Shown here one piece after another: positions 1-1,120 of a stretch of 1,120 nucleotides of DNA. Where the stretch lies: NCBI GenBank assembly GCA_000004985.1, contig GG739547.1; one strand, written 5' to 3'. The position numbers and the translations under genes were made by a program. Under the pieces are notes generated by a model that saw only the letters and a list, made by a program, of their open reading frames with translations, had not been told where the DNA came from and made no database searches. Within the stretch, counting starts at the first letter, position 1. The number at the start of each line of letters is the position of its first letter. The DNA comes from Naegleria gruberi (Eukaryota).

Positions 1-40
1 TCTAATTACACCATATAAACCAATTCTGCATATAACAGAC

Positions 41-451
41 ATGATTGATGAGGAATTATTGAAGGATGAGGAAATAATTTTGGATTTTGCGAATTATAAT
101 TTGAAAAATTGTTCAAGGTTTAATAGAGGTTCAATATTGAGTGATTTATTGAATGGAGAAAGGAGAGATGTTGGATTAAAGTTTTTAGCAATGCATTATG
201 AAGAATATAGACAGTTTACAGATGAATACGGGTTTTCATCGGATGATATTATGTTCATGGTGAAACAAAATGGATTAATTCTTGAAATATTTACAAATCA
301 TCGTTCGTGTAGAGATATTGTGAGAGAGGCAGTTCAGCAAAATCCATCAGTTTTGGATTTAATGTGTAACAACTATATTTCTAAGGAGGTATTTTTGGAA
401 GGAGAGTATATTAATATCCAAAATCCATCCCAAACCAGTTTTTGGATATAG
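41..451 (+). CDS. 5' portion of a DUF4116-like repeat protein gene, as the ORF currently stands. The last 16 sense codons (401-448) and the TAG stop at 449-451 lie inside the left TIR of the inserted element; host-derived coding sequence ends at 401. The frame is open from position 2, so the true start may be ATG 41 or upstream of the window.
   Basis: The 136-aa ORF contains repeat units DDIMFMVKQNGLILEIFTNHRSCR and DIVREAVQQNPSVLDLM. These match the DUF4116 (PF13475-like) pattern, which I recognise from memory rather than from a search. There is no in-frame stop between position 2 and 41. Arginine is encoded by AGA/AGG, consistent with an AT-rich genome. No Shine-Dalgarno-like sequence is evident upstream of ATG 41. 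Confidence 0.6.
   Translation: MIDEELLKDEEIILDFANYNLKNCSRFNRGSILSDLLNGERRDVGLKFLAMHYEEYRQFTDEYGFSSDDIMFMVKQNGLILEIFTNHRSCRDIVREAVQQNPSVLDLMCNNYISKEVFLEGEYINIQNPSQTSFWI
394..401. repeat. Target-site duplication, left copy (TTTGGAAG).
   Basis: Perfect 8/8 direct repeat of 816-823, immediately abutting the outer end of TIR-L. It is not palindromic, so it is distinct from the inverted repeat. Confidence 0.7.
402..451. repeat. Left terminal inverted repeat (TIR-L).
   Basis: GAGAGTATATTAATATCCAAAATCCATCCCAAACCAGTTTTTGGATATAG. It pairs with the reverse complement of 765-815. Confidence 0.8.
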
Positions 452-468
452 GTGAATAAAAAATCGGC

Positions 469-766
469 AAAAAGCCAAATTGAACCAAAAAGCCAAAATC
501 TAAATCCAAAAATAAGTCAAGAAATTTCCACTAAAAAATGAATTATTTCAAAAATAAAATATTCCAAATTTATATCGAAAAATTGTTGATTTATTGCAAT
601 TAGTATTGATAATAATCTAATAAATATTCGTAGTGTGATTTGCCTGCATTCCTTGTTGACAATTGCTCAAACACAACACATTTTCAAATAATATTATCCA
701 ATCCGAGATTTATCGAAAAAGCCAAGCCCGTAAAAATTCAGCCAGATTGCCCTTTTTAAAAAGCCA
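469..766 (+). repeat. Dispersed subterminal direct repeats inside the element. AAAAAGCCA occurs four times (469-477, 487-495, 716-724, 758-766), and TTTAT(A)TCGAAAAA occurs twice (about 567-581 and 708-720).
   Basis: Read directly from the sequence. All copies are in the same orientation and cluster just inside each TIR. The left pair is spaced 18 bp apart. Confidence 0.5.
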
Positions 767-815
767 TATCCAAAAAAAGCGGTTTGGGATAGATATTGGA
801 TATTAATATACTCTC
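765..815. repeat. Right terminal inverted repeat (TIR-R).
   Basis: The reverse complement of 765-815 is GAGAGTATATTAATATCCAATATCTATCCCAAACCGCTTTTTTTGGATATG. The first 20 nt are identical to TIR-L. There are 4 substitutions and one 2-nt T-run length difference over the rest. Confidence 0.8.
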
Positions 816-1120
816 TTTGGAAGCCATTGATAGGAGGACAGATTTTGGAAGTTCATTCTCTATTCCTAACAATTTGATTGAAGATAGGGATGTAGTGTTA
901 AAAGTTGTGGAAAAACATGGAGTTGCTTTGGAACAAGTAAGTGAGACATTTAAATCGGATAGGGAAATTGTATTGACCTCAATTAGGAATAACGGATTGG
1001 CTCTGAGATATGCTAATAAGATATTCTTAACCGATAAGGAAATAGTGAGAGAGGGTCTTTGCGCAAATGGATCAATATTAAATTTTCTATGCAATGAATA
1101 TAAGAACGATAGAGAATTGG
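793..1120 (+). CDS. 3' portion of the same DUF4116-like repeat protein gene. The frame is open from the TAG at 790-792 to the window end, and host-derived sequence resumes at 816/824. There is no in-frame ATG, and the gene continues beyond 1120.
   Basis: Frame 1 (codon starts at positions of the form 3k+1) translates to ...AIDRRTDFGSSFSIPNNLIEDRDVVLKVVEKHGVALEQVSETFKSDREIVLTSIRNNGLALRYANKIFLTDKEIVREGLCANGSILNFLCNEYKNDREL. This has at least three tandem repeats of about 25 aa of the form D+EIVLxxxxxxGxALxYAxxxxxxD+E. There is no stop through position 1120. The only ATG nearby (917) is out of frame. Confidence 0.6.
   Translation, partial: MLDINILSLEAIDRRTDFGSSFSIPNNLIEDRDVVLKVVEKHGVALEQVSETFKSDREIVLTSIRNNGLALRYANKIFLTDKEIVREGLCANGSILNFLCNEYKNDREL
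816..823. repeat. Target-site duplication, right copy (TTTGGAAG).
   Basis: Perfect 8/8 direct repeat of 394-401, immediately abutting the outer end of TIR-R. Confidence 0.7.

What the first reader, a model, noticed from the sequence alone, without database searches (positions are those of the whole stretch)
394..823. MITE-like element with 50-bp TIRs and an 8-bp TSD inserted inside a protein-coding gene
Directly visible are a 20-nt perfect and about 50-nt 88% inverted repeat at 402-451 and 765-815. These bracket 313 bp of non-coding AT-rich DNA. The whole is flanked by a perfect non-palindromic 8-bp direct repeat TTTGGAAG (394-401, 816-823). TIR plus TSD plus absence of an ORF is the classic non-autonomous DNA-transposon (MITE) signature. 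Precise excision, joining 401 to 824, fuses the two flanking ORFs in frame, which I checked codon by codon: gaa(398-400), g401+cc(824-825)=gcc, att(826-828). Both flanks encode the same DUF4116-type repeat. An 8-bp TSD is typical of hAT/P-like elements in eukaryotes and of IS1595, ISL3, IS6, IS256 or IS1016/Merlin-like elements in bacteria. The TIR terminus GAGAG... does not let me assign a family from memory. The element may be an undescribed MITE family.
Basis: seen in the sequence. Interest (0 to 1): 0.8.

Follow-up and report, generated by a model that had tools for sequence, protein, structure and literature searches.

The report
Transposon insertion splitting a Naegleria gene
A 414-bp non-coding mobile element (a MITE) with inverted-repeat ends and an 8-bp target duplication sits inside a gene of the amoeba Naegleria gruberi, and the same genome assembly also encodes the uninterrupted gene, so this is a real, probably recent, but biologically ordinary transposon insertion.

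Summary
Positions 402-815 are a 414-bp AT-rich element with no long ORF. Its terminal inverted repeats are 20 nt perfect and about 87% identical over about 50 nt. They are flanked directly by the 8-bp direct repeat TTTGGAAG (394-401, 816-823). The window is not bacterial. It is a complete 1120-bp orphan scaffold of the eukaryote Naegleria gruberi, and gene model NAEGRDRAFT_77122 runs into the left repeat and stops there.

The predicted empty site exists. Removing 402-823 gives a translation that matches residues 99-330 of N. gruberi NAEGRDRAFT_49131 (605 aa, on a 427.6-kb scaffold) at 231 of 232 residues, with no gap at the junction (KEVFLE|AIDRR). No canonical GT-AG intron can produce that protein from the window, so the other copy really lacks the element.

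The best reading is a non-autonomous cut-and-paste DNA transposon inserted in one haplotype, or in a very recent duplicate, of a DUF4116-repeat gene, truncating it. The superfamily is unresolved. hAT-like is favoured on the 8-bp duplication fitting nTnnnnAn and the terminus GAGAG; Mutator-like is the main rival.

Copy number and an autonomous partner could not be tested, because no N. gruberi genome DNA was reachable. It is a new member of a known kind, of modest interest.

The parts
2..401 (+). Upstream part of the interrupted exon of a DUF4116-repeat gene. It corresponds to NAEGRDRAFT_49131 residues 99-231 plus the first base of codon 232. The annotated ATG at 41 is internal.
   Evidence: The frame is open from base 2. 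It is identical to P0025 residues 99-231 apart from S (380-382, TCT) versus Y225. Pfam DUF4116 E=3e-10.
394..401 (.). Left copy of the 8-bp target-site duplication TTTGGAAG.
   Evidence: (D5). It abuts the left inverted repeat. T at position 2 and A at position 7 fit the hAT target pattern nTnnnnAn (PMC10368747).
402..815 (.). The 414-bp non-autonomous element (MITE-like): AT-rich (28.7% G+C), no long ORF.
   Evidence: As single-stranded DNA the ends pair into a long stem, z=-4.95 against shuffles. No Rfam family, tRNA or Pfam signal.
402..451 (+). Left terminal inverted repeat. The first 20 nt, GAGAGTATATTAATATCCAA, are perfect. It contains an internal inverted pair of the motif ATATCCAA (414-421 on +, 442-449 on -).
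449..451 (+). TAG stop codon supplied by the left inverted repeat. It ends the host frame after 16 element-encoded codons (GEYINIQNPSQTSFWI).
   Evidence: P0001 (NAEGRDRAFT_77122) is identical to ORF 41-451.
469..497 (+). Two left subterminal copies of AAAAAGCC(A) (469 and 487), candidate transposase-binding repeats.
   Evidence: (D7). Their function is inferred, not shown.
716..768 (+). Two right subterminal copies of AAAAAGCC(A) (716 and 758), in the same orientation as the left pair.
   Evidence: (D2, D3).
765..815 (-). Right terminal inverted repeat, with the motif ATATCCAA at 766-773 (+) and 796-803 (-).
816..823 (.). Right copy of the 8-bp target-site duplication TTTGGAAG.
824..1119 (+). 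Downstream part of the interrupted exon. It corresponds to the rest of codon 232 through residue 330 of NAEGRDRAFT_49131 and runs off the end of the scaffold.
   Evidence: identical to P0025. Pfam DUF4116, two stretches, E=9e-24.

Best explanation
Positions 402-815 are a non-autonomous class II (cut-and-paste, DDE-type) DNA transposon, a MITE, in the nuclear genome of Naegleria gruberi.

Inferred mechanism: a transposase supplied in trans recognised the roughly 50-bp inverted-repeat ends. The likely recognition elements are the ATATCCAA motifs, paired inside each end, and the subterminal AAAAAGCC repeats. The transposase joined the element to an 8-bp staggered cut at TTTGGAAG, and repair of the stagger duplicated those 8 bp.

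Shown: the target lay inside an exon of the DUF4116-repeat gene NAEGRDRAFT_49131, between codons E231 and A232. The insertion adds 16 element-encoded codons and a TAG, cutting off the C-terminal 374 residues.

The 1120-bp window is an orphan scaffold that most likely represents the insertion-bearing haplotype of this heterozygous diploid. The 427.6-kb scaffold carries the unoccupied allele. The insertion is therefore probably evolutionarily recent.

Superfamily is the least secure step. hAT-like is favoured (about 40-45%), Mutator-like is next (about 20-25%), and other 8-bp-duplication superfamilies (P, Merlin, Zisupton, Novosib) share the rest.
For: - A 20-nt perfect, roughly 50-nt 87% inverted repeat directly abutted by an 8-bp direct repeat, far beyond chance.
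- The source is N. gruberi. P0001 (XP_002667968.1) is identical to ORF 41-451 and sits on a contig of exactly 1120 bp.
- The empty site exists. P0025 (XP_002677230.1, 605 aa, 427,589-bp contig) shares a 90% cluster with P0001. The window minus 402-823 translates to its residues 99-330 at 231/232 identity with no gap. This requires the other copy to be exactly element plus 8 bp shorter.
- None of the in-frame GT..AG combinations spanning the element reproduces ...KEVFLEAIDRR..., and there is no GT within 394-403. P0025 therefore cannot come from splicing the element out.
- The interior has no long ORF, RNA family or tRNA.
- For a hAT-like assignment: hAT elements usually make 8-bp duplications (PMC12730594). 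Hermes prefers nTnnnnAn and uses subterminal repeats beyond short inverted repeats (PMC10368747). TTTGGAAG has T2 and A7. GAGAG matches 4 of 5 positions of the hAT terminal motif YARNG, which I recall from memory (Kempken and Windhofer 2001).
- Naegleria is described as a heterozygous diploid (PMC9928731). One amino-acid difference in 232 fits allelic divergence.
Against: - No second copy of the element was found and no transposase partner identified, because no N. gruberi genome DNA was reachable. The look-up of encoding contigs has no record for P0001 or P0025.
- The 20-mer end gave no hit in viral contigs and only one isolated match in each of the prokaryote-genome and metagenome collections. 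Neither locus shares any other similarity with the window, and about 1-13 such matches are expected by chance in the genome collection.
- No protein in the databases carries a long translation of the element.
- Apart from P0001, no representative protein carries the one reading frame of the inverted repeat that was searched.
- The empty site is shown at the protein level only.
- Allele versus recent paralogue is not resolved.
- The hAT assignment rests on one insertion site and a terminal motif that deviates at its first base. About 50 bp of end similarity is long for hAT.
Confidence: 0.85

Rival explanations
1. It is the same kind of insertion, but the element derives from a Mutator-like (MULE/MuDR) transposon rather than hAT.
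For: End similarity is long (about 50 bp) and the terminus starts GAGAG. Maize Mu ends start GAGATAAT, which I recall from memory. A full-length MuDRF element has been reported in N. gruberi (PMC3164196).
Against: The duplication is 8 bp. The same paper bp 'characteristic for MuDR elements'. No MULE partner was examined.
Confidence: 0.22
2. The window is not an allele but a very recent duplicate (paralogue) of part of NAEGRDRAFT_49131 that later received the insertion.
For: The scaffold is unplaced and only 1120 bp long. 231/232 amino-acid identity would also fit a young duplicate.
Against: Naegleria is reported to be a heterozygous diploid. A heterozygous 422-bp insertion is a standard reason for a short haplotype scaffold falling out of a Sanger assembly (inference). 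This rival changes only the genetics, not the nature of the element.
Confidence: 0.2
3. The 422-bp interruption acts as a spliceosomal intron, that is, a transposon-derived 'introner', so the gene stays functional.
For: The element offers GAGA|GTATAT at its left end (406). The right end plus the duplication gives a pyrimidine tract followed by AG (CTCTCTTTGGAAG|, 823). Several in-frame GT..AG combinations span the element, for example 366..823 and 406..833.
Against: The element-provided pair 406..823 removes 418 nt and leaves a +4 frameshift that soon reaches a stop. No canonical pair restores the P0025 sequence. The JGI model does not splice it. No literature on introners in Naegleria was found.
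Confidence: 0.04
4. It is an assembly or cloning artefact (a chimeric read), or a contaminant or bacterial IS-derived MITE.
For: The scaffold is tiny and unplaced.
Against: A chimera would not create an inverted repeat abutted by a precise 8-bp duplication at a site that restores a known N. gruberi protein. Both flanks are N. gruberi coding sequence, 231/232 identical to a gene on a large scaffold. The end sequence had only a single isolated 20-22-nt match, with no other similarity, in 596 Gbp of prokaryote genomes.
Confidence: 0.02

Closest known systems
hAT-superfamily non-autonomous elements (hAT-type MITEs; autonomous examples Ac, hobo, Hermes)
   Same: 8-bp target duplication fitting nTnnnnAn. 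A short perfect terminal inverted repeat (20 nt) followed by subterminal repeated motifs. Terminus -AGAG. Small, non-coding, and able to insert into exons.
   Different: The first terminal base is G rather than the usual C or T. Imperfect end similarity extends to about 50 bp. No hAT transposase or other copies have been linked to it. hAT elements were not documented for Naegleria in the literature I could search.
Mutator-like elements (MULEs), including MuDRF reported in N. gruberi (PMC3164196)
   Same: Long inverted-repeat ends beginning GAGA-. A member of the superfamily is known in the same species.
   Different: The duplication is 8 bp here, against 9 bp (typically 9-11) for MuDR.
Other eukaryotic superfamilies with 8-bp duplications: P, Merlin, Zisupton (PMC12730594), Novosib
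   Same: Length of the target duplication.
   Different: Merlin ends start GG and P-element ends start CATG (both from memory). No sequence evidence ties this element to any of them.
Kolobok transposons, reported in Naegleria (PMC9587614)
   Same: DNA transposons with inverted-repeat ends present in the genus.
   Different: Kolobok makes TTAA 4-bp duplications. Here the duplication is the 8-bp TTTGGAAG.
Introner elements (MITE-like intron-generating transposons of Micromonas, Aureococcus and others)
   Same: A short non-autonomous element with inverted-repeat ends and a target duplication inside coding sequence. GT near one end, and an AG contributed by the duplication.
   Different: Splicing at those sites leaves a frameshift, and there is no evidence of splicing or of a large intronic family.

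Membership tests
MITE / non-autonomous class II DNA transposon | Terminal inverted repeats at both ends | tested here: met
   20 nt perfect and 45/52 columns over about 50 nt. The longest in 2000 randomisations was 16 nt.
MITE / non-autonomous class II DNA transposon | Target-site duplication directly abutting the ends | tested here: met
   TTTGGAAG at 394-401 and 816-823. Chance is about 5e-5.
MITE / non-autonomous class II DNA transposon | Small size (under about 800 bp) and no transposase ORF | tested here: met
   414 bp. The longest stop-free stretch lying wholly inside the element is 49 codons. The concatenated six-frame peptides had no database match.
MITE / non-autonomous class II DNA transposon | An unoccupied (empty) site with a single copy of the target | tested here: met
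   Protein level only. P0025 reads ...KEVFLEAIDRR... across the junction, 231/232 identical and ungapped. This cannot be produced by canonical splicing of the window. DNA of that locus was not available.
MITE / non-autonomous class II DNA transposon | Multiple dispersed copies in the host genome | not testable with these tools
   No N. gruberi genome DNA is in any searchable collection. Indirect protein-level searches were negative or uninformative.
hAT superfamily | 8-bp target duplication, often nTnnnnAn | tested here: met
   The 8-bp TTTGGAAG has T at position 2 and A at position 7 (pattern from PMC10368747). This is a single site, so the support is weak.
hAT superfamily | Terminal motif 5'-YARNG and short inverted repeats (about 10-25 bp) | tested here: inconclusive
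   The terminus GAGAG matches ARNG, but its first base is G. The perfect repeat of 20 nt fits, while the extended 50-nt similarity is atypical. The motif itself is recalled from memory.
hAT superfamily | Mobilised by a hAT (BED zinc finger, DDE, hATC dimerisation domain) transposase sharing the same ends | not testable with these tools
   This requires a search of the N. gruberi genome.
Mutator / MULE | 9-11-bp target duplication | tested here: not met
   The duplication is 8 bp. MuDRF in N. gruberi has 9 bp (PMC3164196).
Kolobok | TTAA 4-bp duplication | tested here: not met
   The duplication is TTTGGAAG. Kolobok feature from PMC9587614.
Bacterial IS-derived MITE (IS1595, ISL3, IS6, IS256, IS1016) | Resides in a bacterial genome and shares its ends with an IS | tested here: not met
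   The host is the eukaryote N. gruberi. The end sequence had only one isolated 20-22-nt match, with no other similarity, in 185,579 prokaryote genomes.
Introner element | Element plus duplication provide splice sites whose use restores the reading frame | tested here: not met
   The GT at 406 with the AG at 823 removes 418 nt and leaves a +4 frameshift. Transcript data were not available.

The most novel reading that the evidence does not exclude
The element belongs to a DNA-transposon family that is still mobile in the laboratory strain N. gruberi NEG-M. On this reading, a heterozygous exon insertion with intact ends and a perfect duplication records transposition within the recent history of the strain. 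It would be the first documented active MITE and transposase pair in Heterolobosea, a lineage reported to have very little transposon content. It could also serve as a starting point for insertional mutagenesis tools in Naegleria.
Probability: 0.3. Interest if true: 0.5.

Novelty: new member of a known kind. Interest (0 to 1): 0.3.

Why it matters
Three modest points.

- It corrects an annotation. NAEGRDRAFT_77122 is not a separate 136-aa gene. It is a transposon-truncated copy of NAEGRDRAFT_49131, and its last 16 codons are inverted-repeat sequence.
- It explains why an orphan 1120-bp scaffold exists in the assembly: probably a haplotype carrying a 422-bp insertion.
- Naegleria genomes are reported to contain little recognisable transposon sequence, and few of their repeats are classified. 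A polymorphic insertion with intact ends suggests recent DNA-transposon activity and gives a seed sequence for defining the family and finding its transposase.

None of this challenges current understanding of transposons.

Tried and rejected
- Perfect 20-nt end sequence searched in three collections. Viral contigs: 0 hits. Prokaryote genomes: one isolated match inside coding sequence of a Treponemataceae MAG (L001), with no other similarity. Metagenome contigs: one isolated match, L002. About 1-13 such matches are expected by chance in the genome collection. A longer degenerate end pattern in viral contigs: 0 hits.
- blastn of the whole window against phage records: no match.
- The look-up of encoding contigs for P0001 and P0025: not on record, so no N. 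gruberi DNA could be fetched. N. fowleri is on record but is irrelevant here.
- Concatenated six-frame peptides of the element against 5.8 billion proteins: nothing at E<=10. This only excludes long translated matches.
- Profile of inverted-repeat-encoded peptides (A2). The 46-column version returned 'no candidate', but it also failed to retrieve the positive control P0001, so it is uninformative.
- Representative search with window-derived rows for one reading frame of the inverted repeat (A3). It recovered P0001 (E=1e-10) and otherwise only P0026. P0026 reads like a spurious ORF across a regularly spaced repeat array, possibly a CRISPR array, and I treated it as a chance match.
- Rfam, tRNA and tandem-repeat scans: nothing relevant. 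There was one weak sub-threshold rli31 hit (23.7 bits against a gathering score of 80).
- Intron or introner reading: enumerated and rejected on frame grounds.
- Literature: no paper on MITEs, introners or hAT elements in Naegleria.
- Repbase could not be consulted, so prior description of this family there cannot be excluded.

Full report
**Observation**

- The left arm 402-451 and the reverse complement of the right arm 765-815 share a perfect first 20 nt (GAGAGTATATTAATATCCAA). Overall they match in 45 of 52 aligned columns. The repeat finder extends weaker complementarity to 399-470 / 747-818.
- The octamer TTTGGAAG lies at 394-401 and 816-823, directly abutting the arms.
- In 2000 first-order Markov randomisations of the window, the longest perfect inverted repeat reached 16 nt at most. 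None was flanked by a direct repeat of 6 bp or more. The probability of an abutting 8-bp match is about 5e-5.
- The 414-bp interior is 28.7% G+C. Its longest stop-free stretch lying wholly inside the element is 49 codons. It has no tRNA and no Rfam family above threshold.
- As single-stranded DNA its ends pair into a long stem (z=-4.95).
- Joining 401 to 824 gives one open frame. Both flanks are DUF4116 repeats, and the fused protein has three DUF4116 stretches.
- A third TTTGGAAG at 844-851 lies in coding sequence in another frame. No host tandem repeat covers the duplication.

**Source**

A protein search with the fused translation returned P0001, 'predicted protein [Naegleria gruberi]', 136 aa, on a contig of 1120 bp.
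- P0001 is identical to ORF 41-451.
- The window is therefore a complete orphan scaffold of the eukaryote N. gruberi. Gene model NAEGRDRAFT_77122 simply reads 16 codons into the left inverted repeat and hits its TAG.

**The empty site**

The 90%-identity cluster of P0001 has one other member, P0025. This is NAEGRDRAFT_49131 (XP_002677230.1), 605 aa, on a 427,589-bp scaffold of the same assembly.
- The window translated from base 2 with 402-823 deleted aligns to P0025 residues 99-330 at 231 of 232 identities and with no gap. It reads ...KEVFLE|AIDRR... across the junction.
- The only difference is S (380-382, TCT) against Y225.
It requires the other copy to be shorter by exactly the element plus one copy of the octamer.
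- I checked that P0025 could not be an annotation that spliced the element out. There is no GT in 394-403, and none of the in-frame GT..AG pairs spanning the element reproduces the P0025 sequence.
- The frame is open from base 2 and matches P0025 upstream of the annotated ATG. The window is therefore an internal fragment of this 605-aa gene.

**What it is and how it works**

*Shown:* inverted-repeat ends, an abutting 8-bp duplication, a non-coding interior, and an intact unoccupied counterpart in the same genome.

*Inferred:*
- The element is a non-autonomous cut-and-paste DNA transposon, mobilised in trans by a DDE-type transposase that makes an 8-bp staggered cut.
- The likely protein-binding sites are the ATATCCAA motifs, which form an inverted pair inside each end (414+/442- and 766+/796-).
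- The four AAAAAGCC copies lying just inside the ends (469, 487, 716, 758, all on the + strand) are further candidates. This is comparable to the subterminal repeats used by Hermes (PMC10368747).

*Consequence for the gene:* truncation after residue 231 with a 16-residue element-encoded tail.

*Genetics:* Naegleria is described as a heterozygous diploid (PMC9928731), and the flanks differ by one residue in 232. The simplest account of a 1.1-kb unplaced scaffold is therefore the insertion-bearing haplotype that could not be merged with the empty allele. A very young paralogue is the alternative. Either way the insertion is recent.

**Superfamily**

- An 8-bp duplication is usual for hAT (PMC12730594).
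- TTTGGAAG fits the hAT target pattern nTnnnnAn.
- The terminus GAGAG matches four of five positions of the hAT motif YARNG, which I recall from memory.
- Against hAT: the first base deviates, and end similarity runs to about 50 bp.
- Mutator-like elements have long ends starting GAGA-, and one (MuDRF) is known in N. gruberi, but with the 9-bp duplication characteristic of MuDR (PMC3164196).
- Kolobok, also reported in Naegleria, makes TTAA duplications (PMC9587614) and is excluded.
- Zisupton also makes 8-bp duplications. P, Merlin and Novosib remain possible.
- My estimates are hAT-like about 40-45% and Mutator-like about 20-25%.

**Intron or introner reading**

The element offers GT at 406, and the right end plus duplication offers CTCTCTTTGGAAG| at 823. 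That pair removes 418 nt and leaves a +4 frameshift. Other in-frame pairs delete or add residues relative to P0025. No literature on Naegleria introners was found. I consider this reading unlikely, at about 4%.

**What could not be settled**

- The 20-mer end has no hit in viral contigs. It has a single isolated match in each of the prokaryote and metagenome collections, with no other similarity; about 1-13 are expected by chance in the genome collection.
- Six-frame peptides of the element found nothing.
- A profile of inverted-repeat peptides failed to retrieve even the positive control, so it is uninformative.
- A full HMMER scan of 1.84 billion representatives with one inverted-repeat reading frame recovered P0001 (E=1e-10). 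Its only other hit, P0026, reads like a spurious ORF across a regularly spaced repeat array.
- These results say only that no other gene model in these databases reads into a copy in that frame.
- Repbase and Dfam were not available, so prior deposition of the family cannot be excluded.

**Comparison and verdict**

This works like a MITE and meets every MITE criterion I could test. Copy number is untested, and superfamily membership is open.
- Reported transposon content of N. gruberi is low: 0.28% recognisable TEs in preprint 10.64898/2026.06.24.734286 and 5.1% repeats in PMC9928731. [quoted passage not shown]
- A polymorphic insertion with intact ends is a useful pointer to recent activity and a seed for defining the family. 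Biologically it is an ordinary event.
- Novelty: new member of a known kind. Interest: 0.3.

Noticed in passing
window 41-451: Gene model NAEGRDRAFT_77122 (XP_002667968.1, 136 aa) is an annotation artefact. Its ATG is internal to a larger ORF that is open from base 2. Its last 16 codons and its stop are transposon inverted-repeat sequence. It should be merged with, or flagged as, a disrupted copy of NAEGRDRAFT_49131.
   Followed up: yes
window 380-382: This is the only amino-acid difference between the window and P0025: TCT (Ser) here against Tyr225 there, 19 nt upstream of the insertion point. It fits allelic divergence.
   Followed up: partly
window 844-851 and 390-399 / 505-514: A third copy of TTTGGAAG lies 20 bp downstream of the right duplication, in a different reading frame; by my rough estimate a third copy in the window has about a 4% chance. 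The target context TATTTTTGGA is also the exact reverse complement of an internal element motif, TCCAAAAATA (505-514). This could hint at a target preference resembling the element's own binding motif, or it could be AT-rich coincidence.
   Followed up: no
window 469-497 and 716-768: All four AAAAAGCC(A) subterminal repeats are in the same orientation on the + strand, not mirrored between the two ends. The two ends are therefore asymmetric inside the inverted repeats, as in Hermes.
   Followed up: partly
P0026 (267 aa, from the representative library): The only non-self hit of the inverted-repeat peptide profile (E=8e-4) shows three short peptide motifs recurring about every 23-24 residues (SQSAFAGYGLKR, RNPLSLDMGWK, VAIRFRWIWVEK). 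They look like one DNA repeat read in three frames, so this is probably a spurious ORF called across a repeat array, possibly a CRISPR array. Its resemblance to LSQTAFFGYGFLKR is most likely chance.
   Followed up: partly
The search for homologous proteins: The word-indexed protein search did not return P0001 when queried with a profile containing P0001's own 15-residue tail. Negative results from that tool for short peptides should therefore not be read as absence.
   Followed up: yes
L003 (N. fowleri VFQX01000068.1, 519012-526085): The nearest non-gruberi relative of the host gene is an N. fowleri DUF4116 protein (29% identity, 357 aa), next to an RNase P/MRP p29 gene. DUF4116-repeat genes therefore occur in more than one Naegleria species, but this one is not a close orthologue.
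   Followed up: no
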